A stretch of 64,000 nt of DNA, taken from positions 70,464 to 134,463 of the forward strand of contig JAQBQS010000016.1 in assembly GCA_028286885.1 (NCBI GenBank), written 5' to 3'. This DNA comes from Patescibacteria group bacterium (GTDB lineage: Bacteria; Patescibacteriota; Minisyncoccia; Phycocordibacterales; UBA1006). The notes beneath the pieces were generated by a model. That model saw nothing but the letters and a program-made list of their open reading frames with translations, made no database searches and was not told the origin of the DNA. The position numbers and the translations under genes were made by a program. Each line of letters starts with the position of its first letter. The first letter of the stretch is position 1. Shown here in pieces: positions 1,091 to 57,415 of the stretch.

Positions 1091-1158
1091 GTCCATCATA
1101 CTGATTTTAAAATAAATTGCGAATGAAAAACCTCCCGAATATTCGGAAGGTATGCGCT

Positions 1159-1506: not shown

Positions 1507-1610
1507 AGTTTTTTAGTTTTGATTCATGGTCGATGATACTCTTCATGCTGCTTTTGTCAACCTCACGTCCTCGTTGAGTCGCTACATTCTTATTTTGCTA
1601 TACTCGTCTC

Positions 1611-2348: not shown

Positions 2349-2408
2349 CTAACATCATAAAAAAGAGTAAAGTCTTAAAAACATTTTCTCACCTTAAAAA
2401 CTTACATA

Positions 2409-2933
2409 ATGATAAAGGGCATAATAAAGACAACGGAGCCTGATCAGACGCTCAAAAGGATGGAAATCGGCGAACTCAGAGCCATATTTATCCAAGACAT
2501 TTTACTGACAAGAACGGATATTTACATTTCAAAGGATGCCGAAACGTTTACTCCGGAAGAAACCGGGCGCGGCGAAGGGGCTGATGAGCTCGGCAAGAGC
2601 CTTCGCGACATTCCATGCGTCTGGGTCAAGCGAGTCGGCGATGGGTTGACGCAATTCGATTTCGATCTCGACTTCACCGAAGTCATGGAACCCATTGAAA
2701 TGATGCCCGAGAGCGATCGCCGCGAGATCAGAGATCAGCCTGAACTCTTCGTGAGATTCACGGACTGCAATATCGTCATCGTTGACGAGAAGGAGGAAGA
2801 GGAAAAAGACGAATTGACGTCTCTCAATGAAGCGCTTGCCGTTGCCGAGAGAGAGGAAAATTTCGAAGAAGCGGCAAGGATACGCGACGCGATCTCGAAA
2901 CTGGGGAATGTTAAAAAGAAAGTCAAAAAATAA
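2409..2933 (+). CDS. hypothetical protein with C-terminal UVR-like motif
   Basis: C-terminus LNEALAVAEREENFEEAARIRDAISKL resembles a UvrB/UvrC UVR motif; acidic linker. Confidence 0.45.
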   Translation: MIKGIIKTTEPDQTLKRMEIGELRAIFIQDILLTRTDIYISKDAETFTPEETGRGEGADELGKSLRDIPCVWVKRVGDGLTQFDFDLDFTEVMEPIEMMPESDRREIRDQPELFVRFTDCNIVIVDEKEEEEKDELTSLNEALAVAEREENFEEAARIRDAISKLGNVKKKVKK

Positions 2934-2937
2934 CTTC

Positions 2938-2967
2938 AAATCCCGCAGCAATGCGGGATTTTTTTAT
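2938..2967 (+). terminator. rho-independent terminator
   Basis: Stem tcccgca/tgcggga with loop gcaa, followed by TTTTTTT. Confidence 0.7.
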
Positions 2968-3001
2968 TTCCGATATATCCTGCGCGTGGTATTATTTCCC
3001 C

Positions 3002-3553
3002 ATGCAAATCATTCTTCCGAATCCGTCGAAAAAGCGGGCTCTCTTCATTGTCGACGTCCAGTCCGGATTTGAAACCAAGCGCGACGCGTGGATTATTCCG
3101 AATGTCGTCGCTCTCATCAAGGAAGGCGATTACGCGCTCTTCGTCGATGCCGTGTTTCACGCCGACAAGAATTCGCTCTGGGACAAGGAAACACGGTGGA
3201 CGATGGACGCGTCGCCGACGGTTCCCGAAATAAAATCGATCCTCGATCCGCATAAAACCGTTTTCGTAACCAAGGAAACCAAATCGATTTGGATTGCCGA
3301 CCCGCATCTCGTCGATTATTTAAAATCAGAAAAAGTCGAAGAGATCCATGTTGTCGGATACGACATCAACGACTGCGTGATGTGCACGGCCAATGATGCG
3401 TTTGATTTCGGATTCTCGACCTATGTGATCGAGGAAGCAGCGGACTCATCCGAATCAGACGATCTTCGAAATGACGCCCTTGCCATCTTGCGCGAGAACG
3501 AGATGACAAACCATTCCGAATTGATCAACGAGAAAAAAATCCTCGCGGACTAA
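3002..3553 (+). CDS. isochorismatase-family cysteine hydrolase
   Basis: ALFIVDVQSGF and VVGYDINDCVMCTANDA (catalytic Cys). Start moved to ATG 3002 because the track ATG at 2951 lies inside the upstream terminator. Confidence 0.7.
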   Translation: MQIILPNPSKKRALFIVDVQSGFETKRDAWIIPNVVALIKEGDYALFVDAVFHADKNSLWDKETRWTMDASPTVPEIKSILDPHKTVFVTKETKSIWIADPHLVDYLKSEKVEEIHVVGYDINDCVMCTANDAFDFGFSTYVIEEAADSSESDDLRNDALAILRENEMTNHSELINEKKILAD

Positions 3554-37287: not shown

Positions 37288-38586
37288 TTATTCCGCAGCT
37301 GGAGCTTCAGGCGCTTCAGTTTCCGCGGGAGCTGCCGCTTCTTCCGTTGAATCCTTGGTCAGTTCAGCTTCGTTCTGTACGAAATCTGAAATTGACTTGA
37401 ATCCTTCGTCGTCAAGCGGTGCGCCTTCCTCGTTCACTTCCTCGCCCTTGATTCCCTTGATGTCGATTTTCCATCCCGTAAGCTTCGCGGCAAGGCGAAC
37501 ATTCTGTCCGCCCTTTCCGATGGCCAATGAAAGCTGGTCGTCGGCGACGGTTACGTTTGCCTGATGCGTTTCCTCGTTGATTGAAATGTCGAGAACGCGA
37601 GCCGGTGCGAGTGCGTTTGAAACGTACTCTGATGAATCGGCAGAGAAAGGAATGATGTCGATCTGCTCGCCGTGGAGTTCCTCGGTGATAGATCGTACGC
37701 GAACTCCTCGCTGGCCGATGCATGCGCCCTGCGCGTCGACGTTGTCATCGTTTGACCAGACCGCAATCTTTGATCGCGCCCCGGCCTCGCGTGCAATTGA
37801 TTTGATTTCAACCGTTCCCGCTGCGACTTCAGGCGACTCGACTGCGAACAGTCCTTCGATGAACCGAGGATGCGTTCGCGACAATCGCAAATTAATTCCT
37901 TTCGGTCCTTCTTCTACTTGATACAGATACGCCTTGATGCGATCGCCGGTCTTGTAGAATTCTCCCGGAATCTGTTCGCTTCTTGGCAAAACACCTGTTG
38001 CTCGATTGAAATCGATGAAGACCATTCCGCGATCAACTTTTTGAACTGATCCGATGATGATCTCGCCCTGCTTGCCTTCATACTCGTTCATGACCGATCC
38101 GCGTTCCGCTTCTCGGATTTTCTGCATGATGACCTGCTTGGCGGTCTGGGCCGCAACGCGTCCGAAATCCGTTTCCGGCGTTTCAAGAGGGAAGATGATC
38201 TCGTCGCCGATTGCGGCGTTCGCCTTGAACAATTTCGCAGCGTCGAGGAACATGTGCTTTTCCTCGTCGTAGCGCGGCTTCACTTCCTCGTCGGCCTTCT
38301 CCATGTCCCGGAGCTCGGGATTCGCGCGGAGCTTTTCCATGTCCTCTTCCGAAAGTGCCGGACGGACGGAATCCTCGTCAACGACTGTTTTTACCTGCGT
38401 GAATGTTACTGATCCGGTGTCCTGGTCGAACTGGCACCTAATGACCTGTCCTCGCTTTCCATGGTCCTTCTTGTAGGCTGCGGCGAGCGACTGCTCGATC
38501 GCATCCCACAAAACGGCTGCCGGAATTTTTTTCTCTTCTTCGATCTGGTCGATCGTTGTCTTTAAAAGTTTTACATCAAAGAGCAT
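37288..38586 (-). CDS. nusA: transcription termination/antitermination factor NusA
   Basis: NusA N-terminal domain, S1 domain and KH domains (GACIGQRGVRVRSITEEL...); acidic C-terminal tail. Confidence 0.85.
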   Translation of the reverse strand: MLFDVKLLKTTIDQIEEEKKIPAAVLWDAIEQSLAAAYKKDHGKRGQVIRCQFDQDTGSVTFTQVKTVVDEDSVRPALSEEDMEKLRANPELRDMEKADEEVKPRYDEEKHMFLDAAKLFKANAAIGDEIIFPLETPETDFGRVAAQTAKQVIMQKIREAERGSVMNEYEGKQGEIIIGSVQKVDRGMVFIDFNRATGVLPRSEQIPGEFYKTGDRIKAYLYQVEEGPKGINLRLSRTHPRFIEGLFAVESPEVAAGTVEIKSIAREAGARSKIAVWSNDDNVDAQGACIGQRGVRVRSITEELHGEQIDIIPFSADSSEYVSNALAPARVLDISINEETHQANVTVADDQLSLAIGKGGQNVRLAAKLTGWKIDIKGIKGEEVNEEGAPLDDEGFKSISDFVQNEAELTKDSTEEAAAPAETEAPEAPAAE

Positions 38587-38695: not shown

Positions 38696-38724
38696 TTGTT
38701 GATGCAATACTCCAATGATACAAT
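38696..38724 (+). promoter_or_regulatory. sigma70-like promoter, possibly giving a leaderless mRNA
   Basis: TTGTTG-17 nt-TACAAT, ending 8 nt before ATG 38733. Confidence 0.4.
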
Positions 38725-38732
38725 GTGCTCAT

Positions 38733-39161
38733 ATGGATCAAACCCTTTCGCAAACGAATCGCATTACTCCCGCACCGAGGACGGTAGATCCGTCGGGACA
38801 CGACCACATCCACCGACGTCACATGATCGTCTGGACGCTCCTCATCATTCTTGCATTGATCGTTATCGGCATCGTTACCTTGAAGCTGTATCACAAGCAA
38901 AGAGAAGCAGAATTCCAGAACTCTTATTCCCAAGCTCAGATAGAAAACCAGAAGAAATTTATCCAGCAGGTTGCCAATACTCCGGATTCCAAGCCGATGA
39001 CGGCTGCGGAACAAAAAGCGTATTTTGATTCGGTGAAGGCCGCCGATGCGTCTCAGAGTTCACAGGCACAAGCTGACCAATCAGCATATCTCGAGCAAGT
39101 AGCTGCTCGCGACCGAGCCGTCGAAGCCGGAGCGCGCGCCGATTATGACAAAACTCATTAA
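38733..39161 (+). CDS. membrane-anchored coiled-coil protein (143 aa)
   Basis: TM helix MIVWTLLIILALIVIGIVTL, then a Gln/Ala-rich region. Preferred over the antisense ORF 38604-39014. Confidence 0.45.
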   Translation: MDQTLSQTNRITPAPRTVDPSGHDHIHRRHMIVWTLLIILALIVIGIVTLKLYHKQREAEFQNSYSQAQIENQKKFIQQVANTPDSKPMTAAEQKAYFDSVKAADASQSSQAQADQSAYLEQVAARDRAVEAGARADYDKTH

Positions 39162-39165
39162 TCCT

Positions 39166-40695
39166 ATGAAAAAACACTTTTCGACTTTCAAATACGTAGG
39201 AGTTCTTGCCATCGTTGCGCTTGCGCTCGGACTTGGCATCCATAAGATCAACGCTTCGACTGCAACAGTTACGGTAACTGGCATCAGCGGATTCGGATGG
39301 TCGGATATGCCCGATACGTCGAACGAGTGTTTGCATGGAATTCCTCCTAATAACACATCGTGCGGCTCATACGTTTCTGATCATACAAGCGGCCAGGTAG
39401 GCCGCGGCGCAGGATGGATCAGCATGAACGGCTCGGCAGGAACATCTTCCGGCATGGGCGGAAACGTCTCGATCAATTCAACGACGGGCGAACTCCACGG
39501 ATACGCATGGACGCCGAACATGGGTTGGATCAGATTTGATCCGACAGGCCCGTATCCGGTACAGCCGACAGTAGGAATCGGCAACGCTCCGAACGGAAGC
39601 GTGCCAGGGGGCCCGGTAGGACCCCAGACAGGCGGCAACGGATCTCAGACAGTTCCGGCGAATACAGGAATTCCAGGCAGCGGCCTCCTTGAAAATATTA
39701 TCGAAAAGATTTTGGGCAATCAGAAAGCCTATGCAACGGCCATTTCGAGCAAAATTAACCTGACCAGCGGAACATGGGAAGGCTGGGCTCGGGCTTGTGC
39801 CGTCTTCCAGTCAGGTTGCGACGGAGCACTTGCTACGAGCGACGTAACGGGCGGATGGGACGGATGGATTTCGCTTTCTGGAGACACTTCAAGCATTTGG
39901 CAGATCAACCATCATTACGGCGTCGTCAGCAACATGACAACCGGCGCAACAACAGGTTGGGCATGGGGAGGCGATATCATGGGATGGATTAACTTTGACA
40001 ATGTAAGGCTTCTGATCGCTCCTCTTACATGCGTCGGAACTGACGGCAATACATATACCTATGCTCAAGGAACGACGCCTCCGCCTATCTGCAGCGCATT
40101 GTTATGTTCAGATCCGTTAGCGAACAACGTCGGAAGCGCGCTTCCTTGTACCTACGACGGCCAACTGTGTACCGATCCGTTAGCGAACAACGTCGGAAGC
40201 GCGACTCCTTGTACCTATGGCATCTGTGCCAACCCTCTTGCTACGAACTACGGACAGTCAGGCGCATGTATCCTGCCTATTGTTACAGGCCTTAACGGTG
40301 CGTCAGCGACGATCAGTCAGACAAACGACTGTTCAACAGGCACCGCAGTCATCACATGGTCTACAATCGGGGTTTCTCCCATGTGTCAGGCATCGACAAG
40401 CGGAACGTCAGGTATTACGGGATTCTCGGGGCCGGTCCAGCCAAGCGGTTCGGCGACGGTCCACGGCATCCAGCAGAACGGACAGGCGAACAACTTTACC
40501 ATCACGTGCCCGAATCTGCTGCCCGGATACATCCATCGCGGACCGGTGACAGGAACAACCCAGGTAACATGTCAGATTCCAAACGTGTGTACCGATCCGG
40601 CGGCGAACAACGTTGGAAGTCCGCTTCCATGTACTTATGGTCCAGGAGGGCCTGGAAGCACGGGAACGCCACATCCTATTTACAAAGAAAATTAA
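39166..40695 (+). CDS. secreted repeat protein with GWxW...MGWIxFD motifs and four CxDPxANNxGSxxPCTY repeats
   Basis: Signal peptide; GYAWTPNMGWIRFD and GWAWGGDIMGWINFD motifs; Cys-pair repeats. Confidence 0.55.
   Translation: MKKHFSTFKYVGVLAIVALALGLGIHKINASTATVTVTGISGFGWSDMPDTSNECLHGIPPNNTSCGSYVSDHTSGQVGRGAGWISMNGSAGTSSGMGGNVSINSTTGELHGYAWTPNMGWIRFDPTGPYPVQPTVGIGNAPNGSVPGGPVGPQTGGNGSQTVPANTGIPGSGLLENIIEKILGNQKAYATAISSKINLTSGTWEGWARACAVFQSGCDGALATSDVTGGWDGWISLSGDTSSIWQINHHYGVVSNMTTGATTGWAWGGDIMGWINFDNVRLLIAPLTCVGTDGNTYTYAQGTTPPPICSALLCSDPLANNVGSALPCTYDGQLCTDPLANNVGSATPCTYGICANPLATNYGQSGACILPIVTGLNGASATISQTNDCSTGTAVITWSTIGVSPMCQASTSGTSGITGFSGPVQPSGSATVHGIQQNGQANNFTITCPNLLPGYIHRGPVTGTTQVTCQIPNVCTDPAANNVGSPLPCTYGPGGPGSTGTPHPIYKEN
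40104..40223 (+). repeat. near-perfect tandem duplication (about 60 bp x 2) inside the secreted protein gene
   Basis: gatccgttagcgaacaacgtcggaagcgcgc/actccttgtacctA... occurs twice in a row. Confidence 0.75.
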
Positions 40696-40707
40696 TTATC
40701 AACTTTC

Positions 40708-41943
40708 ATGAAATCTTTCAAAACAATTTCAGTGGCCGTACTTGCAGCCCTCGCGCTTCTTGTCTCGGTTCACTTCGCCCATGCCGCATGGACGGTTCCG
40801 ACCGGAGTTCCCCCGACAGGCAATGTTACGGCGCCTGTTAACGTAGGCGCGACAGGCCAGGTCAAGACAGGGCCGTTCACAGTCCTTAATCTCTTCATGG
40901 CCAAGCAGGGAATCTTCGGCCCGCAGATTGCGAGCGTTTCGAGCACGACGAATATTTTCAGCGCCATGTCGGCAGTTCTCGGAGGACACGGCATCTGGAT
41001 CGACCAGGCCGGAAATCCTACCGTGCAGGGTACCCAGCTTAATATCAACTTGACCCAAAATAGCGCTGGCGCAGGACGAAATGCCATTGATATCGAAGTA
41101 AGCCCGGACAACACGGCAGTTGATAAGCACGCTGCATTTACGACGAACGCCCCGGGATTCCACTTCTGGAGCAATGCGACGGCATCGAGCGGAGGCATTC
41201 TTGCCGGATACATTACTCTTAACAGAGGATGTCAGGCCAACGGAGGTGTCGACTGTACGGGCAAGATCTTGACATCGGACGCAAATGGAAACGCATCATG
41301 GGAGGATGCTTCGGCGATCGCTCCACTCCCAACGCTTACTGGAGGTACGATGGATATCAAAATTGTTCGTGCAATAAATAATGCTTCAGGTTATCGAGCA
41401 TTCGCATCATGCGCGGCTGGAACCCAATCAAGCGATACAAGTGGTGAGAATATTCCATCATCAGGAGGTTATACCCTCGTTGGTGGTGGCGGCGATTGTG
41501 CTGATAGTACAATGCTCATCTCTCAGCCGAATGCAGGAAATATTCATAATGAATGGCAGGTAAGCTGCGTAGGACATCTTGGAGTTGATGTACATTCAAC
41601 AGCGGTCTGTATGAAATATGTAGCTCCGACTCTCGCAGCTCCGACAGCGCCTGTTGTTACGACGCAGTGGTCAGCTCCATCGGGATACTCTCCTAATACC
41701 GGCAACGGAAGCTACGGTTACGGATGTTCGTTCTTCGGAACACATTCATATGGAGTTCGCCAGCATAATTCCTCGGGTGATCAGTTCATCCAGAACTCAT
41801 GTCTCTACCGAATCCGCCCGGGAACCCAAGGAACCCAGCAGTGTCAGTACGGATCGGTTACGAATACGAATGCTAACCTCCAGCCGGTTTCAAGCTGTAC
41901 TGAATCGTCATCATCGACAACCTACACGCTTTACCGCAATTAA
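40708..41943 (+). CDS. secreted Cys-rich hypothetical protein (411 aa)
   Basis: Signal peptide MKSFKTISVAVLAALALLVSVHFAHA; multiple Cys in the C-terminal half. Confidence 0.5.
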   Translation: MKSFKTISVAVLAALALLVSVHFAHAAWTVPTGVPPTGNVTAPVNVGATGQVKTGPFTVLNLFMAKQGIFGPQIASVSSTTNIFSAMSAVLGGHGIWIDQAGNPTVQGTQLNINLTQNSAGAGRNAIDIEVSPDNTAVDKHAAFTTNAPGFHFWSNATASSGGILAGYITLNRGCQANGGVDCTGKILTSDANGNASWEDASAIAPLPTLTGGTMDIKIVRAINNASGYRAFASCAAGTQSSDTSGENIPSSGGYTLVGGGGDCADSTMLISQPNAGNIHNEWQVSCVGHLGVDVHSTAVCMKYVAPTLAAPTAPVVTTQWSAPSGYSPNTGNGSYGYGCSFFGTHSYGVRQHNSSGDQFIQNSCLYRIRPGTQGTQQCQYGSVTNTNANLQPVSSCTESSSSTTYTLYRN

Positions 41944-41946
41944 CTC

Positions 41947-41975
41947 AAAAAGCGCCTTCCTAAAGGCGCTTTTTG
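41947..41975 (+). terminator. rho-independent terminator
   Basis: agcgcctt-ccta-aaggcgct followed by TTTT. Confidence 0.7.
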
Positions 41976-42090
41976 CTATAGAGAGTTTTCCACAGGTCCG
42001 GGAAGGAGACCTTGACAATCTTTTTAAGAAAGGTTACTATAAAAGTAGTAGAATTCTGTTTTTTTACAATAACATAAAATCCCATAAATC

Positions 42091-42699
42091 ATGAGAAAAT
42101 TTTTCACGTTTATTTTTGCAGCCGTCCTCGCATTGGGAGCTGCCGCGCAAACCGCGCCGTCTTTTGATCAAGGCAATGGCTTCAGCTATGATCCTTACCC
42201 GGATCACGTCGTAATCCATTACAACTACGATTCGGCGACGGTACTGCCGGTCTACATGACCTTTTCTCTTACTACACCTGTAGGAGATACGGCCGTTGTC
42301 GATTCGTATTTCGTAGATAATACGAGGCATGCCGACCATGTCGTCTACATCACGCCTGCGCCTGCGCCCTATACGATCTACAAGGTTTACTTCTTTATGA
42401 CCAATGACTCCGGCTCTAGTACCGGATTCAGCAATGTGAGAACCGCCGGTCCAAACGGCATAACGCCAATTGATACAAAAGCCGTGCGCATCGTAACAGA
42501 ACAAAAAGCATGTACGATTACTGCAGACGAGTCTTACCAAGGATCGCAAGTTTCGCTTTATTCGATCATCGGCCAGAAGGTTGCATCAGAAAAAATAGAG
42601 ATGGGACAATGTATCGTTCATGCGCAGACAGCAGGAATCTACATTCTTGCGATTGACCGTAACGGTACTATTGAAACAAAAAAAATACTGATCGAGTAG
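42091..42699 (+). CDS. secreted protein with a Por/T9SS-like C-terminal beta-sandwich tail
   Basis: Signal peptide; C-terminal VSLYSIIGQKVASEKIEMGQCIVHAQTAGIYILAIDRNGTIETKKILIE resembles a type-A sorting domain. Confidence 0.5.
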   Translation: MRKFFTFIFAAVLALGAAAQTAPSFDQGNGFSYDPYPDHVVIHYNYDSATVLPVYMTFSLTTPVGDTAVVDSYFVDNTRHADHVVYITPAPAPYTIYKVYFFMTNDSGSSTGFSNVRTAGPNGITPIDTKAVRIVTEQKACTITADESYQGSQVSLYSIIGQKVASEKIEMGQCIVHAQTAGIYILAIDRNGTIETKKILIE

Positions 42700-42760
42700 A
42701 TCAAAACGCGCTGTTGACTTTGTAGTCATGTATTTAAGATACGTGACCTCGAATCAAATG

Positions 42761-42789
42761 CCGGCATCCAAATGGGTGCCGGTTTTTTA
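42761..42789 (+). terminator. rho-independent terminator
   Basis: ccggcatcc-aaat-gggtgccgg followed by TTTTTT. Confidence 0.7.
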
Positions 42790-42790
42790 T

Positions 42791-42819
42791 TTGACTTATT
42801 TCTTCGGCAGGAATACTCT
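42791..42819 (+). promoter_or_regulatory. sigma70-like promoter
   Basis: TTGACT-17 nt-TACTCT. Confidence 0.45.
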
Positions 42820-42856
42820 AAGAGAAATTTCGTTCACAAACCGTAAATAAAAGACC

Positions 42857-43285
42857 ATGAAAAAGACATCGACGCTTTCGTTTCTGATTCTTTTCTTCTT
42901 TACATTCGCCTTTGCCGAGCGTCCGGACACCGCGTCCGATTCACATACGCCGTGCATCGCGCAGTCTCCCGGCTTCGGATCGGTCATCAACCGCATCGGA
43001 TACGCCGGCGAGATGATTTCGGAGGTTTATTTCGAGGTGGCGCCGACACCGGCCGACGTCCGCAAAGACGGCATCGGATACTGGGTCCGGCATCCTAATT
43101 ACAAGCCGGACGGCGCGCCTACCGTTTTGGATTTTGTCTCCAACGACAACAGGGCCGTAAGAAAGGCGATCAAGGAAAAGAAACCGCTTGTCATCATGGC
43201 GACGCTTTCCAAAAATGAACATGACGAATGGGCGGTGACGACGCGGGAGGAGGCGCTCATCCACATTCCTCCGCTGAAAAAATAG
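42857..43285 (+). CDS. secreted hypothetical protein (142 aa)
   Basis: Signal peptide MKKTSTLSFLILFFFTFAFA. Confidence 0.45.
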   Translation: MKKTSTLSFLILFFFTFAFAERPDTASDSHTPCIAQSPGFGSVINRIGYAGEMISEVYFEVAPTPADVRKDGIGYWVRHPNYKPDGAPTVLDFVSNDNRAVRKAIKEKKPLVIMATLSKNEHDEWAVTTREEALIHIPPLKK

Positions 43286-43330: not shown

Positions 43331-43364
43331 AGCCGCACGCCACTCGGTCGTGCGGTTTTTTTTG
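43331..43364 (+). terminator. rho-independent terminator
   Basis: ccgcacg-N9-cgtgcgg followed by TTTTTTTT. Confidence 0.7.
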
Positions 43365-43394
43365 TTTTCCAAGAATACAAGGTATACTTGCACC

Positions 43395-44156
43395 ATGAAA
43401 AAACTCATTGTGGGCAATTGGAAAATGAATCCGACGCGCGGGACTGATGCGCGCAAGCTGTTCAAATCCGTAAATGCGACCGCTTCAAAACTGAAAAATA
43501 CCGAAACGGTCGTTTGTCCGCCGCTTGTTTATTTGGAGTCGCTCGGCGAACTGGTGACGACGCGGTCGTGCGTGCTCGGCTCGCAAGACGCATTTTGGGA
43601 ACATGCGGGAGCCTACACGGGACAGGTTTCCGCCGATATGATTTTCGGCACGAAGGCGCGTTATGTCATCGTGGGACATTCGGAACGCCGTGCAATGGGC
43701 GAGACGGATGAGATGGTCAGCAAGAAAATAAAAAGCATTTTGCAATTTCCGCTGATTCCGATCGTATGCGTGGGCGAGACGAAGCGCGATGATGATCATG
43801 CGTATGTGAAGCTGGTAAAAAATCAGATCAAAAGCGCGCTTGCCGATTTAACCCAAGAGGAAATCGCGCGGATCGTGATCGCCTATGAACCCGTATGGGC
43901 TATCGGCAAGAATGCCAAGAAGGCATGCGAGCCGTCGGACTGCCGTGAAATGGCGCATGTCATTAAAACAGTATTGGCTGACATTTCAAATGCCGAAATC
44001 GCAAAGGCGATTCCGATACTTTATGGAGGATCGGCGAATGCCGAGAATGCGGAACCTTATTTGAAAGACGGGCTTGTTGACGGATTGTTGGTTGGCCGAG
44101 CAAGTCTGGATGCGAAGGAGTTTATCAAGATTTTAAAAATCGCCGAGAAAAATTGA
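43395..44156 (+). CDS. tpiA: triosephosphate isomerase
   Basis: GNWKMN, VGHSERR and AYEPVWAIG motifs. Confidence 0.9.
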   Translation: MKKLIVGNWKMNPTRGTDARKLFKSVNATASKLKNTETVVCPPLVYLESLGELVTTRSCVLGSQDAFWEHAGAYTGQVSADMIFGTKARYVIVGHSERRAMGETDEMVSKKIKSILQFPLIPIVCVGETKRDDDHAYVKLVKNQIKSALADLTQEEIARIVIAYEPVWAIGKNAKKACEPSDCREMAHVIKTVLADISNAEIAKAIPILYGGSANAENAEPYLKDGLVDGLLVGRASLDAKEFIKILKIAEKN

Positions 44157-45405: not shown

Positions 45406-45768
45406 TTGTCATTCCGGACTTCGAGCCGGAATCCATTTTGATTTCTATGAAGGATTATTATGTTTATATTCTAGCGAGTCAAAAGAACGGGACTCTTTAT
45501 ATCGGAGTAACAGGAAATCTTCAACGAAGAATCCATGAACACAAGCATAAAGTTCACGAAGGCTTTACTGCTAAATATAATGTCTCAAACCTTGTTTATT
45601 TTGAAAGAACCCAAGACGTGCACAGTGCACTTGCTAGGGAAACTCGGCTTAAAAACTGGAAAAGGGAATGGAAAATAGATCTTATTGAAAAAGAAAATCC
45701 TGATGGGCACGAGCTTTCAGCTGATCTTTTCTAAAATCATGGATTCCGGGTCAAGCCCGGAATGACAA
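45406..45768 (+). mobile_element. 363 bp mini-cassette: GIY-YIG nuclease ORF bounded by 29/28 bp imperfect terminal inverted repeats
   Basis: Left end ttgtcattccggacttcgagccggaatcc. The reverse complement of the right end is ttgtcattccgggcttgacccggaatcc; the outer 12 and 9 nt are identical. Confidence 0.4.
45447..45734 (+). CDS. GIY-YIG nuclease-family protein (YhbQ/COG2827-like, 95 aa)
   Basis: YVYILASQKNGTLYIGVTGNLQRRIHEH...RETRLKNWKREWKIDLI. Confidence 0.75.
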   Translation: MKDYYVYILASQKNGTLYIGVTGNLQRRIHEHKHKVHEGFTAKYNVSNLVYFERTQDVHSALARETRLKNWKREWKIDLIEKENPDGHELSADLF

Positions 45769-45798: not shown

Positions 45799-46473
45799 TT
45801 AGAGAGAAATCGCTGCTGTCTGCATCTGCGCCTTGGTCGCGGAATTCATTGAGAGGGAATTAGCGCCGTCGGCATCCATGGTTGTGTAGCCGACTCGATC
45901 AACGCGGAGCTTGTACGATCCGTTCGTTGTCGGATGAACGGCAAGCGAGATTTGGAACGTTGCCGCCGTGTAAGCCGGGATCACGAATCGGTTCGATGCG
46001 TTGAATCCTGCGCCTGAAACGGCTGTGAGGAGGCAGCTTTGCTTGCCGAATCCGTCAGTGGTTGACGCTCCGTCCTTGAGAAGCGAGAACGATACTCCGT
46101 TCTCCGTCAGGTCGCTGTGGCATGACTGCGAGATGTACAAGTCATGATCCGCCGCGTTAACTTTGAACTGAAGCGTAAAGATTCCGTGTTTCGTTGATGA
46201 TGAAGCATCTGCCGACATATTGGCTGTCTGCGAAACAAAGTGAATTTGTGGTTCAACCGATGTTGAGACAGTTCCGGCATTAGACGCTGATGCGGTTGCA
46301 GAAGTCTGGTCGGCTGAATCTGCGGCTGTCTGTGTTGATGTGTCAGACGGAAGGACCAAGGAATCATCCGTGTCAGGTCGTTTTACTGCGACAACGATAA
46401 TAATAATGATGGCGATTACTACGATCGCACCTGCCAGGTACGCGCCGTATTTCTTCATTGATTCGTTATTCAT
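45799..46473 (-). CDS. membrane-anchored Ser/Thr-rich hypothetical protein (224 aa)
   Basis: N-terminal TM AYLAGAIVVIAIIIIIVVAV. Confidence 0.45.
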   Translation of the reverse strand: MNNESMKKYGAYLAGAIVVIAIIIIIVVAVKRPDTDDSLVLPSDTSTQTAADSADQTSATASASNAGTVSTSVEPQIHFVSQTANMSADASSSTKHGIFTLQFKVNAADHDLYISQSCHSDLTENGVSFSLLKDGASTTDGFGKQSCLLTAVSGAGFNASNRFVIPAYTAATFQISLAVHPTTNGSYKLRVDRVGYTTMDADGANSLSMNSATKAQMQTAAISL

Positions 46474-55116: not shown

Positions 55117-55614
55117 ATGTTAGACATAAAAAACGAATTCACTGAATTAATTTCAGGAAGCGAGGAAATAATCATCGACGAGTGTAGGGGTTCTGATATA
55201 CTCGAGAATACGGAAGGCCTTTTTCACATCAACGAAGAAAGCTTCCGCAAGTTCAAACTGAAGCTTGCAGACGAAATCAGTCCGAACATTCCTACGGATA
55301 AAATATCTGCCGAAGTTTATCAAAGAAAAAAAGACGCAACGCTTCTGCAAATGTTCGGCTCGTTCGGTACGGATATCAGCACTCTTTGCATGAGCTGGAA
55401 ACAGATAAAAATATTCTGCAAGAAGCATCCAATGTGGCTCTGCGGCGGGGGATTCGGAACTCTTTTTATAACCAAAATCAATGGCGAGTATGCGGTTGCA
55501 TCGCTCAACCTCGTGCCTTCCATAGGGCTGCGCATGTCCGCTTTCCCGCTAGAAGAAAAGTATGTTTTTTCCTGGGGATTCCAGCATTTGGTTGTTCCTA
55601 GGTTGTCTTCTTGA
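55117..55614 (+). CDS. paralog 1 of a novel ~160 aa family (165 aa)
   Basis: Shares EEIIIDEC.GS at the N-terminus, LC..Q.QI..FCEK.P in the middle, LFLFK, and a C-terminal PRLSS/PKLSS with the next three genes. Confidence 0.7.
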   Translation: MLDIKNEFTELISGSEEIIIDECRGSDILENTEGLFHINEESFRKFKLKLADEISPNIPTDKISAEVYQRKKDATLLQMFGSFGTDISTLCMSWKQIKIFCKKHPMWLCGGGFGTLFITKINGEYAVASLNLVPSIGLRMSAFPLEEKYVFSWGFQHLVVPRLSS

Positions 55615-55648
55615 AAAACTAAATCTCGTCCGTAAGGCGAGATTATTC

Positions 55649-55677
55649 TTGACTAAAATTCTTTTAAGATGTATATA
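55649..55677 (+). promoter_or_regulatory. promoter of paralog 2
   Basis: TTGACT-17 nt-TATATA. Confidence 0.55.
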
Positions 55678-55716
55678 GATTTGGAAATTAACATTGCAAA
55701 AATTAAATAAACCAAG

Positions 55717-56199
55717 ATGACAGCTGCTGAAAATTTATTTGAACTCATTTCTCTGGATAAGGAGATCGTCATCGATGCATGCGACGGTTCGCAAACCTTG
55801 GCAGACGCCACAACCTTATTCGTCGCAACCGATTCGGTCGTCAAAAAATGCAGGTTCAACAAGATCAGGCCAACCGGACCGACTTCCGTTGACATTTACA
55901 AAATACCTGAGAAGGGTTCGCTTGCGGGCGCTTCGATCATAGATTATTTTGAAAATGATCTGGACAAATTGTGTCTGACCCAAAACCAGATAAGGAGCTT
56001 CTGTGAGAAGAGCGCCGCGAAGTGGATAAAGGGAGATAAATTCGAGTTTTTCTTCCTGTTTAAGATAGGCGGGCGAATACACGCCGCCCATGTTGCCACG
56101 TATACTTCTGGCCTAAGGGTCTTTGCCTACAGCATGGATTTCGTAATTGCCTGGTTCGACCGTGGCAACCGGGGTTTGGTAGTTCCCAAACTACTTTAA
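55717..56199 (+). CDS. paralog 2 (160 aa)
   Basis: EIVIDACDGSQ...LCLTQNQIRSFCEK...FFFLFK...VVPKLL. Confidence 0.7.
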   Translation: MTAAENLFELISLDKEIVIDACDGSQTLADATTLFVATDSVVKKCRFNKIRPTGPTSVDIYKIPEKGSLAGASIIDYFENDLDKLCLTQNQIRSFCEKSAAKWIKGDKFEFFFLFKIGGRIHAAHVATYTSGLRVFAYSMDFVIAWFDRGNRGLVVPKLL

Positions 56200-56208
56200 A
56201 ATCTATTC

Positions 56209-56238
56209 AAAGCCCTGATCCACAATCAGGGCTTTTTC
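56209..56238 (+). terminator. terminator of paralog 2
   Basis: agccctga-tccacaa-tcagggct followed by TTTTT. Confidence 0.7.
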
Positions 56239-56239
56239 A

Positions 56240-56268
56240 TTGACAAGAATGCTTTTGCGTGATATACA
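56240..56268 (+). promoter_or_regulatory. promoter of paralog 3
   Basis: TTGACA-17 nt-TATACA (TGaTATACA extended -10). Confidence 0.55.
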
Positions 56269-56309
56269 GTTATTGAAATAACAATTGTAAAATTTAAAAT
56301 ATAACCAAG

Positions 56310-56807
56310 ATGACAGACATAATAATCCGAGAGTCCATGGTACGTCTTTCAGAAGACAAGAAACTTATCATCGACGCATGTAGCGGAGAAAGGACTTTTG
56401 CAAGTTCGCCTACTCTTTTCGGGTCACATGGAGCGGGATGGCCATTTAATGAAATGGATTATCCAAGCGCTCCTACTCCTGAAATCGAAATCGAGCGATA
56501 TCAGATGATAAAGCCAGATTGTGTAACGGATATATTCAAATCTTTTAGTTCCGATCTGGAAAAGTTATGCCTCAATCAGGATCAAATAATCACATTCTGC
56601 GAAAAGCATCCCGAAGAAATTTCCAGAGAGTCTTCAATGACGACATTTTTCCTCTTTAAAAGAAAAGAGAACGTCATGGTCGGGGTAATGTTTGGGGATG
56701 GAGCCATGGATAACCGCCATTATGTTGTTGAGGGCCAGGATCTGCCTACTGGGGTACATAGTATTAAATATTTCCGCTCAATACTTATCCCTAAACTGTC
56801 TTCTTGA
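56310..56807 (+). CDS. paralog 3 (165 aa)
   Basis: KLIIDACSGER...LCLNQDQIITFCEKHP...FFLFK...IPKLSS. Confidence 0.7.
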   Translation: MTDIIIRESMVRLSEDKKLIIDACSGERTFASSPTLFGSHGAGWPFNEMDYPSAPTPEIEIERYQMIKPDCVTDIFKSFSSDLEKLCLNQDQIITFCEKHPEEISRESSMTTFFLFKRKENVMVGVMFGDGAMDNRHYVVEGQDLPTGVHSIKYFRSILIPKLSS

Positions 56808-56817
56808 AAAACATTCA

Positions 56818-56848
56818 AAGGCCCGATCTTATAGATCGGGCCTTTTTC
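56818..56848 (+). terminator. terminator of paralog 3
   Basis: gcccgatc-ttata-gatcgggc followed by TTTTT. Confidence 0.7.
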
Positions 56849-56877
56849 TTGACTAAAATATTTTTCTATTATATACA
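56849..56877 (+). promoter_or_regulatory. promoter of paralog 4
   Basis: TTGACT-17 nt-TATACA. Confidence 0.55.
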
Positions 56878-56917
56878 GATGGAGAAATAACTATTAAAAT
56901 ATAAATATATAACCAAG

Positions 56918-57415
56918 ATGGCAGCTGCAACAAACGAATTCCTGAAACTCATTTCAGGTGAACAAGAAATTATCATCGACGCATGTGATGGCACGAGAAG
57001 CATTGCGGACTCGGAAGAAATATTTACCAGGTTCCTAGATCCAAGTTTCAAAGATGCTTTTTTTGACAAAACCGGCAAAGAAACAAAAGAAATTTCATTG
57101 GAAATCAGCGAAATAACTAAAATGTCGACCTTACAGAAGATATTCCATTCGTTGGAGATTGATCCAGAAAACTTACGTCTTACTCAGCATCAGATAATCA
57201 ATTTTTGTGAGAAGTATCCTGATAAGTTTTTAATCAATGGAAAACCTACATTATTTCTTTTCAAAATGGGCAGTTCCGTGTGTGTAGCTAGTATCGCCCG
57301 GGATTCTTGTGGATTAAGGATTTATAGAAATGACCTTTATGGCGGCAATGTCGGTCCTGGACGTTATAATGTGATGCCTTCTTGGCGAATCGCAATTCCC
57401 AAACTGTCTTCTTGA
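56918..57415 (+). CDS. paralog 4 (165 aa)
   Basis: EIIIDACDGTR...LRLTQHQIINFCEKYP...LFLFK...IPKLSS. Confidence 0.7.
   Translation: MAAATNEFLKLISGEQEIIIDACDGTRSIADSEEIFTRFLDPSFKDAFFDKTGKETKEISLEISEITKMSTLQKIFHSLEIDPENLRLTQHQIINFCEKYPDKFLINGKPTLFLFKMGSSVCVASIARDSCGLRIYRNDLYGGNVGPGRYNVMPSWRIAIPKLSS

What the first reader, a model, noticed from the sequence alone, without database searches (positions are those of the whole stretch)
38733..43285. Co-directional cluster of five secreted proteins with GW.W...MGWI.FD motifs and CxDPxANNxGSxxPCTY disulfide repeats; one carries a T9SS-like C-terminal tail
Five + strand genes (38733-43285) all have signal peptides or TM anchors and no recognisable enzymatic domains.

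Gene 39166-40695 has two copies of G(Y/W)AW....MGWI.FD and four tandem ~20-aa Cys-pair repeats. Two of these are a near-perfect 60 bp DNA tandem duplication (40104-40223), suggesting recent repeat-number expansion.

Gene 42091-42699 ends ...VSLYSIIGQKVASEKIEMGQCIVHAQTAGIYILAIDRNGTIETKKILIE. This strongly resembles the Por/type-IX-secretion C-terminal sorting domain, which is unexpected given the otherwise sigma70/SD-type expression signals of this genome.

The cluster could be an adhesion or cell-surface remodelling module.
Basis: partly seen in the sequence, partly recalled or inferred. Interest (0 to 1): 0.55.

Follow-up and report, generated by a model that had tools for sequence, protein, structure and literature searches.

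The report
CPR surface-protein cassette with T9SS-type tail
An ultra-small Patescibacteria (CPR) genome carries a conserved set of exported, non-enzymatic surface proteins, one of which ends in a genuine Bacteroidota-type "type IX secretion" sorting domain even though this kind of bacterium is not known to have that secretion machine.

Summary
The window comes from a Patescibacteria MAG. Five + strand ORFs (38715-43285) each have a single N-terminal hydrophobic segment and no enzymatic domain.

- The DNA duplication has a 63 bp period, not 60. The two copies match at 46/51 nt and share a 30-nt exact core.
- The four Cys repeats are three in tandem plus one distal copy.
- g2 has four GW repeats, not two.
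- g5 is an orphan behind g4's terminator and is absent from all relatives.

The T9SS tail is real. TIGR04183 scores 24.1 bits (cut-off 23). Syntenic orthologues score up to 49 bits. A profile of four of these proteins hits the Flavobacterium NucA CTD seen bound in the T9SS translocon (E 4.9e-9).

g1-g2-g3-g4 sits between nusA and tpiA in at least 9 independent CPR lineages, so g4 is not contamination. g4 orthologues also keep a Gln right after the signal peptide (8/10), which matches the Bacteroidetes "Q-rule". That points to an old transfer from Bacteroidota.

g2 (a GW-repeat protein) and g3 (tail-fibre-like, with an N-terminal module found in 730 representative proteins) belong to families that Pfam and NCBIfam do not model. 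They are adjacent far more often than chance would give.

Best reading: a vertically inherited CPR cell-surface fibre or adhesion cassette with an exapted CTD protein. The function is inferred, not shown.

The parts
38715..39161 (+). g1: small bitopic membrane protein. One TM helix at aa 38-56 is preceded by HRRH. About 90 aa of Q/A/E/K-rich C-terminal part is predicted to lie outside the cell. The start codon is uncertain (38715 or 38733, or another).
   Evidence: ORF. Single hydrophobic segment, KD19 = 3.04 at aa 38. Syntenic orthologues in L001, L004, L007, L008, L012, L019-L021. No family hit above any cut-off.
39166..40695 (+). g2: 509-aa exported surface protein (MDB4984784). Order of parts: N-terminal signal peptide or anchor, GW-repeat module, Cys-pair repeats, Ig-like domain, conserved C-terminal tail.
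   Evidence: Exact match to the NCBI protein. 144 homologues, all from CPR-type sources where named. 180 tblastn-confirmed loci in GTDB species genomes; the 80 best that were kept are Patescibacteria-type or unnamed MAGs. AF2 mean pLDDT 70.8. No Pfam or NCBIfam family.
39289..39996 (+). GW-repeat module of g2. Four Trp/Gly-rich beta-hairpin repeats: GFGWSDM..GAGWISMN, GYAWTPNMGWIRFD, GWARAC..GGWDGWISL, GWAWGGDIMGWINFD. A low-complexity insert ending in an amphipathic helix plus 'KAYA' (aa ~137-190) splits the module.
   Evidence: Regex positions. Family consensus and invariant G/W columns. AF2 pLDDT above 85 for aa 100-130 and 190-300. No PDB or BFVD structural match to this part. No PDB sequence match.
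40105..40275 (+). Three tandem CxDPxANNxGxxxPC(TY) Cys-pair units (aa 314, 335, 354). The first two (40105-40155 and 40168-40218) form a 63-bp-period near-identical DNA duplication.
   Evidence: 46/51 nt identical, 30-nt exact core, and only 1 synonymous difference. Units 1 and 2 share 78-80% with unit 4 and 49-51% with unit 3. Copy number and even repeat type differ between orthologues.
40303..40575 (+). Ig-like beta-sandwich domain of g2 (aa ~380-470).
   Evidence: AF2 pLDDT 82-96. Foldseek hits are to Ig/FN3-type domains only.
40588..40638 (+). Fourth, distal Cys-pair unit (CTDPAANNVGSPLPCTY, aa 475).
40675..40692 (+). Conserved extreme C-terminus of g2: P-I-Y-K-E-N. No TM helix follows it.
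   Evidence: Conserved in all 8 close relatives. A P-x-[YFIW]-x-E motif lies within the last 14 aa in 46 of 120 family members.
40708..41943 (+). g3: 411-aa exported tail-fibre-like protein (MDB4984785) with a Cys-rich C-terminal part.
   Evidence: Exact NCBI match. Syntenic orthologues. 730 representative proteins at E<=1e-3. No Pfam, NCBIfam or PDB hit.
40708..40887 (+). N-terminal module of g3: Sec signal peptide (..HFAHA|A) followed by AWTVPTGVPPTGNVTAPVNVGATGQVKTG.
   Evidence: Most of the 730 hits match only residues ~5-75, in proteins of 64-1935 aa. W28, P31, P36, N39, P43, N45, Q51 and K53 are (nearly) invariant in 140 sequences. No Pfam or NCBIfam model covers it.
41260..41301 (+). 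GKILTSDANGNASW motif of g3 (aa 185-198), a repeat unit of fibre-like proteins.
   Evidence: Conserved in orthologues. The same motif is repeated 9 times in P0137. Relatives carrying the N-terminal module sporadically have Peptidase_S74, Gp53-like_C, Collar and H_lectin domains.
41950..41975 (+). Terminator-like hairpin after g3: AAGCGCCTT-CCTA-AAGGCGCTT running into a T-run.
   Evidence: Read from the sequence. The pattern scanner did not list it.
42012..42040 (+). Promoter-like site TTGACA-17-TACTAT upstream of g4.
   Evidence: 10 of 12 matches, the best site in the region. This is a consensus match only.
42091..42699 (+). g4: 202-aa exported protein (MDB4984787). Signal peptide ending ..AAA|Q, then an FN3-like beta-sandwich, then a T9SS type-A C-terminal domain.
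   Evidence: AF2 (pLDDT 55) gives two beta-sandwich domains. Syntenic orthologues in L001/2, L004, L007, L010, L014, L015, L019, L021.
42481..42696 (+). T9SS type-A CTD-like domain of g4 (aa ~131-202), ending ..GIYILAIDRNGTIETKKILIE.
   Evidence: TIGR04183 24.1 bits (cut-off 23). PF18962 20.7 bits (cut-off 27). Family profile vs PDB: NucA CTD 8glk_D E 4.9e-9; 8glj_D E 8.9e-6. Invariant G..G.Y and the C-terminal basic pair are retained.
42760..42793 (+). Intrinsic-terminator-like hairpin (10-bp stem, 7 GC pairs) plus T-run after g4.
42857..43285 (+). g5: 142-aa ORF with a signal-peptide-like N-terminus (MDB4984788). A lineage-specific orphan, not part of the conserved cassette.
   Evidence: No relative in any ORF of 89 related loci. 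Relatives have tpiA directly after g4. No family hit. Its own terminator-like hairpin lies at 43333-43363.

Best explanation
This is a vertically inherited cell-surface protein cassette of a Paceibacteria/Parcubacteria-type CPR lineage. It sits in a fixed chromosomal slot between nusA (- strand) and tpiA-pgk.

Shown:
- The core is a tightly packed g1-g2-g3 unit.
  - g1 is a small single-pass membrane protein.
  - g2 is a Sec-exported protein. It has a Trp/Gly-rich four-repeat beta module, a fast-evolving stalk of disulfide-type Cys repeats, an Ig-like domain and a conserved C-terminal P-I-Y-K-E-N tail.
  - g3 is a Sec-exported tail-fibre-like protein. Its first ~60 mature residues (AWTxPTxxPPxGNVxAPxNxGxxxQxKxG) form a module shared by hundreds of proteins of very different length.
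- g4 is separately transcribed. It is a small exported protein made of an FN3-like domain plus a genuine T9SS type-A C-terminal domain.
- g5 is an unrelated lineage-specific orphan.

Inferred:
- g2 acts as the cell-proximal base. Its GW module binds either the wall or the shared N-terminal module of g3-type fibres.
- g3 forms the distal fibre that contacts a host or a substrate.
- g4 was acquired long ago from a Bacteroidota T9SS cargo gene. It keeps both the CTD and the 'Q-rule' Gln after the signal peptide.
- Because a monoderm CPR cell has no T9SS, g4 now uses the CTD as an ordinary Ig-like binding or scaffolding domain on the cell surface rather than as a secretion signal.
- The 63-bp duplication in g2 is recent repeat expansion or gene conversion in a stalk whose repeat number and type vary between species.
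For: Identity of the genome: NCBI names and the contig. All 80 best GTDB loci that encode the g2 module are Patescibacteria-type or unnamed MAGs.

Export and lack of enzymes: each product has a single N-terminal hydrophobic segment. No enzymatic families are hit.

Synteny:
- nusA | g1-g2-g3-g4 | tpiA is seen in independent assemblies L001/L002, L004/L005 and L007.
- The same order holds in GTDB species loci L010, L014, L015, L019 and L021.
- nusA lies within 3 kb upstream in 31 of 90 loci. tpiA lies within 6 kb downstream in 20 of 90 loci.

g2-g3 linkage: 57 of 58 ORFs with the g3 N-terminal module are on the g2 strand. 30 of them start within -25 to +362 nt of the g2 ORF's end.

g3 looks like a fibre: it carries the GKILTSDANGNASW motif. 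Relatives with the N-module also carry Peptidase_S74, Gp53-like_C, Collar or H_lectin domains.

g4 CTD:
- TIGR04183 scores 19-49 bits across 10 family members; 8 of 10 are above the cut-off of 23.
- PF18962 is above its gathering score in 7 orthologues.
- The PDB profile hit to the translocon-bound NucA CTD has E 4.9e-9 (PMC10994853).
- The fold motifs and the C-terminal basic pair are conserved.

Bacteroidota origin: Gln follows the predicted signal-peptidase site in 8 of 10 family members (Q-rule, PMC5837995).

Not a recent insertion or a chimera: the tetranucleotide z-score of the g4/g5 region is 0.2-0.6. g4 carriers form mostly one clade on the g2 tree.

Transcription units.

Repeat dynamics.
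Against: - No experiment or expression data bear on any of this.
- Surface-fibre and adhesion roles are inferred from domain types only.
- The g4 structure model is poor (pLDDT 55), and its fold matches are generic.
- The GW module has no structural or sequence relative of known function. Its proposed anchoring or docking role is a guess.
- Absence of T9SS genes was not tested on the whole genome. Only 64 kb of it was available, and of that only selected ORFs were scanned.
- The closest relative of the window g4 (P0132, 33-35% identity over the full length) lies in a different context, next to a tyrosine recombinase and HTH genes on a contig of unknown taxon. So g4-like genes may move, and strict vertical descent is not certain.
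- L015 carries g4 but falls outside the main carrier clade.
Confidence: 0.55

Rival explanations
1. Host-directed mimicry. The CPR cell lives on a Bacteroidota host and displays or releases g4. The intact type-A CTD of g4 binds the host's PorV/SprA carrier-translocon components. The CTD would then serve as an attachment or hijacking ligand rather than a secretion signal.
For: - The CTD is the best-conserved part of g4 across lineages that share only 20-35% identity.
- The C-terminal basic pair is kept in all 9 CPR orthologues aligned. It corresponds to the almost invariant Lys that contacts PorV (PMC10994853).
- The Bacteroidetes-specific +1 Gln is also kept in 8 of 10 (PMC5837995).
- Cultivated CPR bacteria are obligate episymbionts (abstracts listed).
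Against: - No host is known for this lineage.
- CTD recognition by PorV/SprA happens inside the translocon pore, entered from the periplasmic side (PMC10994853). It is unclear how an external protein would reach it.
- According to the same paper, the conserved residues mostly specify the fold, so fold constraint alone can explain their conservation.
- K/R exchange occurs at the 'invariant' Lys position, and L019 has RR.
Confidence: 0.08
2. g2 and g3 (and perhaps g4) are structural envelope proteins rather than adhesive fibres. They would be S-layer or wall-associated lattice components. The GW module would serve as a cell-wall-binding domain.
For: - The cassette holds a core chromosomal position next to housekeeping genes and is kept across many species.
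- The aromatic hairpin repeats recall wall-binding repeats (from memory; not matched by Pfam).
- One Foldseek hit to the Ig domain is the SbsB S-layer protein (rank 27).
Against: - The g3 family shows tail-fibre-type motifs and distal domains, not lattice domains.
- The strong length and domain variability of proteins carrying the g3 N-module (64-1935 aa) fits exchangeable fibres or adhesins better than a lattice.
- No SLH or other S-layer family is hit.
Confidence: 0.2
3. The cassette is a divergent version of the recently described CPR Pam pilus: donor-strand-exchange pilins, membrane-anchored chaperones, and an RbmA-like anchor that g4 would represent.
For: - g4 is predicted as two tandem beta-sandwich domains, and RbmA appears among its Foldseek hits (ranks 6-7).
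- The L010 g4 orthologue touches the NCBIfam PamR model (E 0.029, 13 bits).
- All components are Sec-exported, as in the pam operon (10.64898/2026.03.03.709456).
Against: - None of g1-g5 hits any Pam model at E<=1. The PamR touch is far below that model's cut-off of 300 bits.
- None of the five has a C-terminal TM helix such as PamC, PamD and PamR have.
- No chaperone-like protein is present.
- Pam pilins are reported mainly in Saccharimonadia and Microgenomatia. This cassette is found in Parcubacteria-type genomes.
Confidence: 0.05
4. g4 (and g5) are assembly or binning artefacts, or a very recent insertion of Bacteroidota DNA into the contig.
For: Both have Bacteroidota-looking signal peptides. 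g4 has a T9SS CTD. g5 has no relatives at all.
Against: - g4 occupies the same slot between g3 and tpiA on contigs from at least 9 independent assemblies or species.
- The composition of the region is typical for the window.
- The orthologues are highly diverged, so the gene is old.
- For g5 alone, a recent gain cannot be excluded.
Confidence: 0.02

Closest known systems
T9SS type-A C-terminal-domain cargo proteins of Bacteroidota (TIGR04183 / PF18962; e.g. Flavobacterium johnsoniae NucA and RemZ, Porphyromonas gingivalis RgpB)
   Same: g4 shares these features:
- a Sec signal peptide;
- a ~70-aa beta-sandwich domain at the extreme C-terminus with the family's G..G.Y fold motifs, and 'PNP' in several orthologues;
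- the C-terminal basic pair.
It matches solved CTDs (8glk_D E 4.9e-9) and keeps the Bacteroidetes +1 Gln.
   Different: - The host genome is a Patescibacteria genome. By established knowledge this group lacks an outer membrane and T9SS.
- The cargo part is only a ~100-aa FN3-like domain with no enzyme.
- The gene is fixed in a CPR-specific surface-protein cassette.
- The window copy is below Pfam's gathering score.
Pam pilus operon of CPR bacteria (Troman et al. 2026, bioRxiv 10.64898/2026.03.03.709456)
   Same: Both are CPR-specific clusters of Sec-exported, Ig-like or FN3-like, Cys-pair-containing surface proteins with no trans-envelope machine. The pam neighbourhood also contains a tail-fibre-like protein. 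PamR, like g4, is a two-beta-sandwich RbmA-like protein.
   Different: - No sequence match to the Pam models.
- No chaperone.
- No C-terminal TM anchors.
- Different CPR classes.
- Different genomic neighbourhood: nusA/tpiA-pgk here, ATP synthase there.
Phage tail-fibre-like and bacterial fibre proteins with the G-K-V-L-T-S-D-x-x-G-N-A-x-W repeat and Peptidase_S74 / Collar / gp53-like distal domains
   Same: g3 carries one copy of the motif. Proteins sharing its N-terminal module sometimes end in these tail-fibre domains.
   Different: g3 itself has none of those Pfam domains or any PHROG hit. It has a Sec signal peptide and a module that no family library describes. No phage genes lie nearby.
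Vibrio cholerae RbmA (two FnIII domains, biofilm matrix scaffold)
   Same: The predicted architecture of g4 is two small beta-sandwich domains. RbmA is among its Foldseek hits (4kkr, 4be6).
   Different: TM-scores are only ~0.25 on a low-confidence model. There is no sequence similarity. The second domain of g4 is a T9SS CTD by sequence.
Aromatic beta-hairpin wall-binding repeats of Gram-positive surface proteins (choline-binding / CW_binding_1 type)
   Same: Both have short repeats dominated by Gly and Trp/Tyr, predicted as beta-hairpins, in an exported surface protein. This resemblance is recalled from memory.
   Different: There is no Pfam match at E<=1. Spacing and consensus differ (GxAWSxxIGWIxF, 4 copies). 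No ligand is known.

Membership tests
T9SS type-A CTD cargo (TIGR04183 / PF18962) | The C-terminal ~70-80 aa match the family HMM above the curated cut-off. | tested here: met
   Window g4: TIGR04183 24.1 bits vs 23, but PF18962 20.7 vs 27. Among the other family members (eight syntenic orthologues and P0132), TIGR04183 scores 19.4-48.9 bits and seven of the nine are above the cut-off. PF18962 scores 27.2-45.8 bits in 7. Profile vs PDB CTDs: E 4.9e-9 and 8.9e-6.
T9SS type-A CTD cargo (TIGR04183 / PF18962) | The domain sits at the extreme C-terminus, and an N-terminal Sec signal peptide is present. | tested here: met
   The match runs to residue 201 of 202. The N-terminus MRKFFTFIFAAVLALGAAA|Q has a single hydrophobic segment. 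No SignalP run was available.
T9SS type-A CTD cargo (TIGR04183 / PF18962) | Conserved fold motifs and the near-invariant Lys close to the C-terminus (PMC10994853). | tested here: met
   Alignment with the NucA CTD shows invariant G32, G54 and Y56. A (K/R)(K/R)I pair is present in all 10 sequences, with Lys at one of the two positions in 9 of 10.
T9SS type-A CTD cargo (TIGR04183 / PF18962) | The organism encodes the T9SS machinery (SprA/Sov, PorV, PorU, GldK-N/PorK-N) and has an outer membrane. | not testable with these tools
   Only 64 kb of the genome is available. The ORFs that were scanned show none. By established knowledge Patescibacteria lack an outer membrane and T9SS is restricted to the FCB group. 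The literature search found no report of T9SS in CPR.
CPR Pam pilus operon | PamA/B/E-type pilins, PamT or PamR recognisable by the NCBIfam CPR_pilus models. | tested here: not met
   No Pam model is hit by g1-g5 at E<=1. The only contact is the L010 g4 orthologue vs PamR, at 13 bits against a cut-off of 300.
CPR Pam pilus operon | Membrane-anchored chaperones and anchor protein with a C-terminal TM helix (PamC, PamD, PamR). | tested here: not met
   None of the five products has a hydrophobic segment outside the N-terminus.
Sortase (LPXTG) or exosortase-type C-terminal sorting signals | A C-terminal motif followed by a TM helix and a basic tail. | tested here: not met
   No LPXTG-like motif and no C-terminal hydrophobic segment in g1-g5. 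The g2 tail PIYKEN is the very end of the protein.
Type IV pilins / pseudopilins | Class III signal: a short basic leader, then G|F(T/S)L(I/L)E and a hydrophobic helix. | tested here: not met
   No such motif in the first 60 residues of g1-g5. g2-g5 have Sec-type n-h-c regions ending in AxA-like sites.
Phage tail fibre proteins (PHROGs / Pfam Peptidase_S74, Collar, Gp53-like_C) | A match to a tail-fibre family model. | tested here: not met
   g3 has no PHROG or Pfam hit. Only 1-2 of 140 proteins sharing its N-module carry such domains.

The most novel reading that the evidence does not exclude
g4 is a molecular mimic of a Bacteroidota T9SS cargo. An episymbiotic CPR lineage captured a host cargo gene. 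It has kept the gene's intact type-A CTD, including the PorV-contacting basic residue, and its Q-rule N-terminus. The purpose would be to dock onto or exploit the host's PorV/SprA carrier-translocon system. This would be the first case of a secretion-system sorting domain reused as an inter-species attachment or hijacking ligand. In the same reading, the g2 GW module plus the g3 N-terminal module would define a third CPR appendage system, in Paceibacteria, besides type IV and Pam pili.
Probability: 0.08. Interest if true: 0.9.

Novelty: new variant of a known kind. Interest (0 to 1): 0.6.

Why it matters
How CPR/Patescibacteria attach to and recognise hosts is a central open question. These bacteria may make up a large share of bacterial diversity. 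So far only type IV pili and the newly described Pam pili have been tied to their surface.

This locus adds three things:
1. A deeply conserved surface-protein cassette in Parcubacteria-type genomes, always at the same chromosomal site. It is built from two families (the GW-repeat protein and proteins with the AWTxPxxxPPxGN N-module) that no domain library describes. The two are genetically linked.
2. A clear example of a T9SS sorting domain kept under constraint in a lineage that should have no T9SS. Either the CTD fold has a second function, or it points to an interaction with Bacteroidota.
3. A testable marker (CTD plus Q-rule) for old gene flow from Bacteroidota into CPR, which may hint at past or present hosts.

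If g4 is only an exapted Ig-like domain, the finding is a useful annotation and a caution for genome pipelines. Those pipelines will label such CPR proteins 'T9SS type A sorting domain-containing protein'.

Tried and rejected
- Rfam and tRNA scans of the window found nothing.
- TRF did not find the 63-bp duplication. It was measured by script instead.
- The word-index homology search with g4 alone found only g4 itself. The orthologues were reached through synteny and then through a profile (only 6 proteins).
- The search for related loci with the g4 alignment failed because no stretch was conserved enough. The g2 alignment was used instead.
- The AF2 model of g4 was of low confidence (pLDDT 55), and its Foldseek hits were generic Ig/FN3 tandems. 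I do not use them as evidence for a CTD; the sequence profiles carry that claim.
- Foldseek of g2 against PDB and BFVD matched only its Ig-like domain. The g2 family profile and the g3 sequence found nothing significant among PDB sequences.
- PHROGs gave no meaningful hit, so a prophage or tail-fibre gene origin of the cluster was dropped.
- The Pam pilus was considered after a weak NCBIfam PamR touch and reading the preprint. It was rejected as a membership because there are no model hits, no chaperones and no C-terminal TM helices.
- Chimeric assembly or recent HGT for g4 was rejected on synteny and composition.
- The taxon of L090, which holds the closest g4 relative, could not be identified. 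The integrase tblastn against plasmids and phages, Rfam and tRNA scans gave no taxonomic signal.
- Repeat copy number between samples of the same population could not be compared. No relative closer than 44% identity exists in the protein collection.
- Literature searches for T9SS or Por_Secre_tail in CPR returned nothing relevant.

Full report
WHAT THE WINDOW IS. Exact-sequence look-up shows that g2 (from 39166), g3, g4, g5, nusA and pgk are the deposited proteins MDB4984784/85/87/88/82/91. They belong to a 'Patescibacteria group bacterium' MAG, on a contig of 140,526 bp. The neighbourhood is housekeeping: hisS, DUF192, nusA (37288-38586, - strand), tpiA, pgk, a GIY-YIG ORF, HIT, recJ, comEC and tuf. 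There are no tRNA or Rfam hits in the 64 kb.

CHECK OF THE OBSERVATION. The five + strand ORFs exist. Each has one hydrophobic segment, at the N-terminus only. In g1 it is an internal-start TM helix at aa 38-56, preceded by HRRH. In g2-g5 it is a Sec-type n-h-c region. Pfam, NCBIfam and PHROGs give no enzymatic domain.

In g2 the two clear G(Y/W)AW....MGWI.FD copies are at aa 112-125 and 264-277. The family consensus shows two further, degenerate copies: GFGWSDM...GAGWISMN and GWARAC...GGWDGWISL. The module therefore has four repeats.

There are four CxDPxANNxGxxxPC units. Three are in tandem (aa 314, 335, 354) and one is distal (aa 475).

The DNA duplication is real but its period is 63 bp, not 60. 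40105-40155 and 40168-40218 share 46/51 nt, with an exact 30-nt core and a single synonymous difference. Units 1 and 2 share 78-80% with unit 4 and about 50% with unit 3.

The genes are co-directional but not one operon:
- g1-g2-g3 are separated by 4 and 12 nt and end with a 9-bp hairpin running into a T-run (41950-41975).
- g4 has the best promoter-like site of the region (42012-42040) and a 10-bp GC-rich terminator (42760-42783).
- g5 follows with its own hairpin plus T8 (43333-43363).

IS THE T9SS TAIL REAL? Yes.
- For the window protein, TIGR04183 scores 24.1 bits (cut-off 23, E 2.7e-5). PF18962 scores 20.7 bits (cut-off 27). On its own this is borderline.
- The syntenic orthologues are not borderline. 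PF18962 gives 27.2-45.8 bits in seven of them. TIGR04183 reaches 48.9 bits.
- A profile of four family members, searched against all PDB sequences, hits the 75-residue CTD of F. johnsoniae NucA (8glk_D, E 4.9e-9) and another Por CTD (8glj_D, E 8.9e-6). It also hits two further CTD-bearing proteins, and the RgpB CTD weakly.
- 8GLJ and 8GLK are substrate CTDs caught inside the SprA-PorV translocon (PMC10994853).
- An alignment of nine CPR sequences with the NucA CTD shows invariant G32, G54 and Y56. 'PNP' is present in several orthologues. The basic pair (K/R)(K/R)I sits near the C-terminus. That paper describes the Lys there as the one almost invariant residue that contacts PorV rather than specifying the fold.
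- The AF2 model of g4 is poor (pLDDT 55). It shows two beta-sandwich domains (aa 40-117 and 150-201). Foldseek hits are generic Ig/FN3 tandems, with the RgpB CTD at rank 23. I give this little weight.

CONSERVATION. The word-index search with g4 alone found nothing, but genomic context did. The best g2 homologues (37-44% identity) lie on contigs from unrelated samples with the same order:
- nusA(-), a small TM protein, the g2 homologue, the g3 homologue, a ~200-aa Por_Secre_tail protein, then tpiA and pgk (L001/L002, L004/L005, L007).
- Scanning GTDB species genomes with the g2 alignment gave 180 confirmed loci. The 80 best were kept, all from Patescibacteria-type or unnamed MAGs: Nomura-, Vogel-, Kaiser- and Taylorbacteria, Paceibacterota.
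- With HMMs built from the window cluster, g4 orthologues were found in five more species (L010, L014, L015, L019, L021). They are always between g3 and tpiA.
- g1-g2-g3 without g4 occurs in others (L008, L009, L012, L020).
- nusA lies within 3 kb upstream of the g2 homologue in 31 of 90 loci. tpiA lies within 6 kb downstream in 20 of 90.
- On a rough NJ tree of g2, the g4 carriers fall mostly in one clade with g4-less members interspersed. L015 lies outside that clade. This suggests one old gain with losses, though not cleanly.
- The g4/g5 region has ordinary tetranucleotide composition (z 0.2-0.6).
Contamination, chimerism and recent insertion are therefore excluded for g4. g5 has no relative in any of the 89 loci, and relatives go straight from g4 to tpiA. 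It is a lineage-specific orphan.

WHERE g4 CAME FROM. Besides the CTD, 8 of 10 family members have Gln immediately after the predicted signal-peptidase site..AAA|QT..SSA|QA..AEA|QQ..NFA|QA..ISA|QT..ASA|QN..ALS|QS..ADA|QP. This is the 'Q-rule'. PMC5837995 reports it as specific to Bacteroidetes and not shared even by the whole FCB group. Two independent Bacteroidota hallmarks in one small gene point to an old transfer of a T9SS cargo gene into this CPR lineage (inference).

One caveat applies. The closest relative of the window g4 is P0132, at 33-35% identity over the full length. That is closer than the syntenic orthologues, which are at 21-26%. It sits next to a tyrosine recombinase and HTH genes on a 3.5-kb contig whose taxon I could not determine. 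g4-like genes may therefore also travel on mobile elements.

THE OTHER PROTEINS.

The g2 family has this layout:
- an N-terminal anchor or signal;
- the four-repeat GW module;
- a variable stalk;
- an Ig-like domain (AF2 pLDDT 82-96);
- a conserved extreme C-terminus, P-I-Y-K-E-N.
The stalk changes between orthologues in both copy number and type. There are 0-4 CxDPxANNxGxxxPC units, or 2-3 CxDGxDNxxNGLIDxxDPxEC units in the same place. That fits the recent 63-bp duplication. The GW module has no match in Pfam, NCBIfam, PDB sequences, PDB folds or BFVD.

g3 has 730 relatives among 1.84 billion representative proteins. Nearly all match only residues ~5-75, that is the signal peptide plus AWTxPTxxPPxGNVxAPxNxGxxxQxKxG. 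They range from 64 to 1935 aa in length. W28, P31, P36, N39, P43, N45, Q51 and K53 are (nearly) invariant in 140 of them. None of the 140 hits any NCBIfam model. The only Pfam domains are sporadic tail-fibre types: Peptidase_S74, Gp53-like_C, Collar, H_lectin and Peptidase_G2. g3 also has one GKILTSDANGNASW unit, a motif that P0137 repeats nine times.

ORFs with the g3 N-module are linked to g2 homologues. They occur in 49 of 90 loci. 57 of 58 are on the same strand. 30 start within -25 to +362 nt of the g2 end. Uniform placement over the ±8 kb flanks would give only a few such cases.

HOW IT MOST LIKELY WORKS.
Shown: a conserved, Sec-exported, non-enzymatic cassette of beta-rich, disulfide-rich, Ig/FN3-like and fibre-like proteins. 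g2 and g3 are genetically coupled. g4 is a bona fide type-A CTD protein.
Inferred: g2 is a cell-proximal base held by its N-terminal segment. Its Trp-rich GW module binds the wall or the common N-module of g3-type fibres. g3 is the distal, exchangeable fibre or adhesin. g4 is a small accessory scaffold whose CTD has been exapted as an Ig-like binding domain, since a monoderm CPR cell has no translocon to use it. I put this at about 0.55.

Rivals:
- an envelope or S-layer role (0.2);
- host-T9SS mimicry (0.08);
- a divergent Pam-type pilus (0.05);
- an artefact (0.02).

COMPARISON WITH WHAT IS KNOWN. The closest described system in the same bacteria is the Pam pilus (bioRxiv 10.64898/2026.03.03.709456). 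It has Sec-exported Ig-like pilins joined by donor-strand exchange, membrane-anchored chaperones and an RbmA-like anchor, PamR. The cassette here resembles it in spirit. It fails the membership tests: no Pam model hit, no chaperone, no C-terminal TM helices, different CPR classes and a different neighbourhood.

g4 meets every sequence criterion of a T9SS type-A cargo. The one criterion that matters for function, a T9SS in the same cell, could not be tested here and is not expected. Full-text searches found no paper linking T9SS CTDs to CPR.

VERDICT. The finding is real and more interesting than a generic 'secreted protein cluster'. It is a new variant of known kinds: a surface-protein cassette and a T9SS CTD protein, in an unexpected lineage. 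It also brings with it two protein families that Pfam and NCBIfam do not model. Function remains inferred. Interest 0.6.

Noticed in passing
window 40675-40692 (g2 C-terminus); proteins P0008-P0127: 46 of 120 GW-repeat family members end with a P-x-[YFIW]-x-E motif within the last 14 residues. Examples..PIYKEN..LPEWKEIAPF..VIPTFQEI..LPKWKEITPF. No TM helix follows, so it differs from LPXTG or PEP-CTERM signals. It may be a C-terminal recognition or donor-strand element.
   Followed up: partly
window 39574-39735 (g2 aa ~137-190): A low-complexity G/P/S/T insert sits between GW repeats 2 and 3. It ends in an amphipathic helix plus an AxA-like site (..LLENIIEKILGNQKAYA|T). The insert is present in P0009-P0012 (..TAYA|Y..KAFA|A..TAYA|Q) but absent in P0008, P0013 and P0015. 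It could be an internal processing site.
   Followed up: no
g2 orthologues P0010, P0011 vs window 40105-40275: At the same position in the stalk, some orthologues carry CxDGxDN(N/D)xNGLIDxxDPxEC units (Ca-binding-like) instead of the CxDPxANNxGxxxPC units. This is a module swap, not only a copy-number change.
   Followed up: partly
L090 (SRR22038625_380164) 37-3056: The closest relative of the window g4 is P0132 (33-35% identity, full length). It is not in the nusA-tpiA cassette. It lies next to a XerC/D-type tyrosine recombinase and two HTH genes, followed by ~450 nt without ORFs. The taxon is undetermined. It may be a mobile element.
   Followed up: partly
P0137 (920 aa): This protein looks Bacteroidota-like, with the signal peptide ..LHA|Q. 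It has nine repeats of the G-K-(V/I)-L-T-S-D-A-x-G-N-A-S-W motif that g3 carries once. So a second sequence element of the cassette is shared with a Bacteroidota-looking protein.
   Followed up: no
window 55117-57415: Four tandem paralogous ORFs (160-165 aa, 29-36% identical) lie directly upstream of tuf. They have no signal peptide and no Pfam family, but share invariant Cys/Asp/Gly positions.
   Followed up: partly
window 43350-43395: The longest tpiA ORF starts at GTG 43350, inside the terminator hairpin and T-run that follow g5. The ATG at 43395 (MKKLIVGNW..) is the likely true start. The TIM domain begins at residue 18 of the long ORF.
   Followed up: partly
window 45450-45734 and 45799-46473: A small GIY-YIG/T5orf172 nuclease ORF and a 224-aa N-terminally anchored membrane protein (- strand) lie between pgk and the HIT gene. 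Relatives L001 and L004 have different small genes in this interval. It looks like a variable spot, and the GIY-YIG ORF may be a selfish insertion.
   Followed up: no
window 41944-42090: The NCBI locus-tag and accession numbering skips one entry between g3 (JWM20_964) and g4 (JWM20_966). The depositors therefore annotated something in or near this 147-nt intergenic region. I did not identify it.
   Followed up: no
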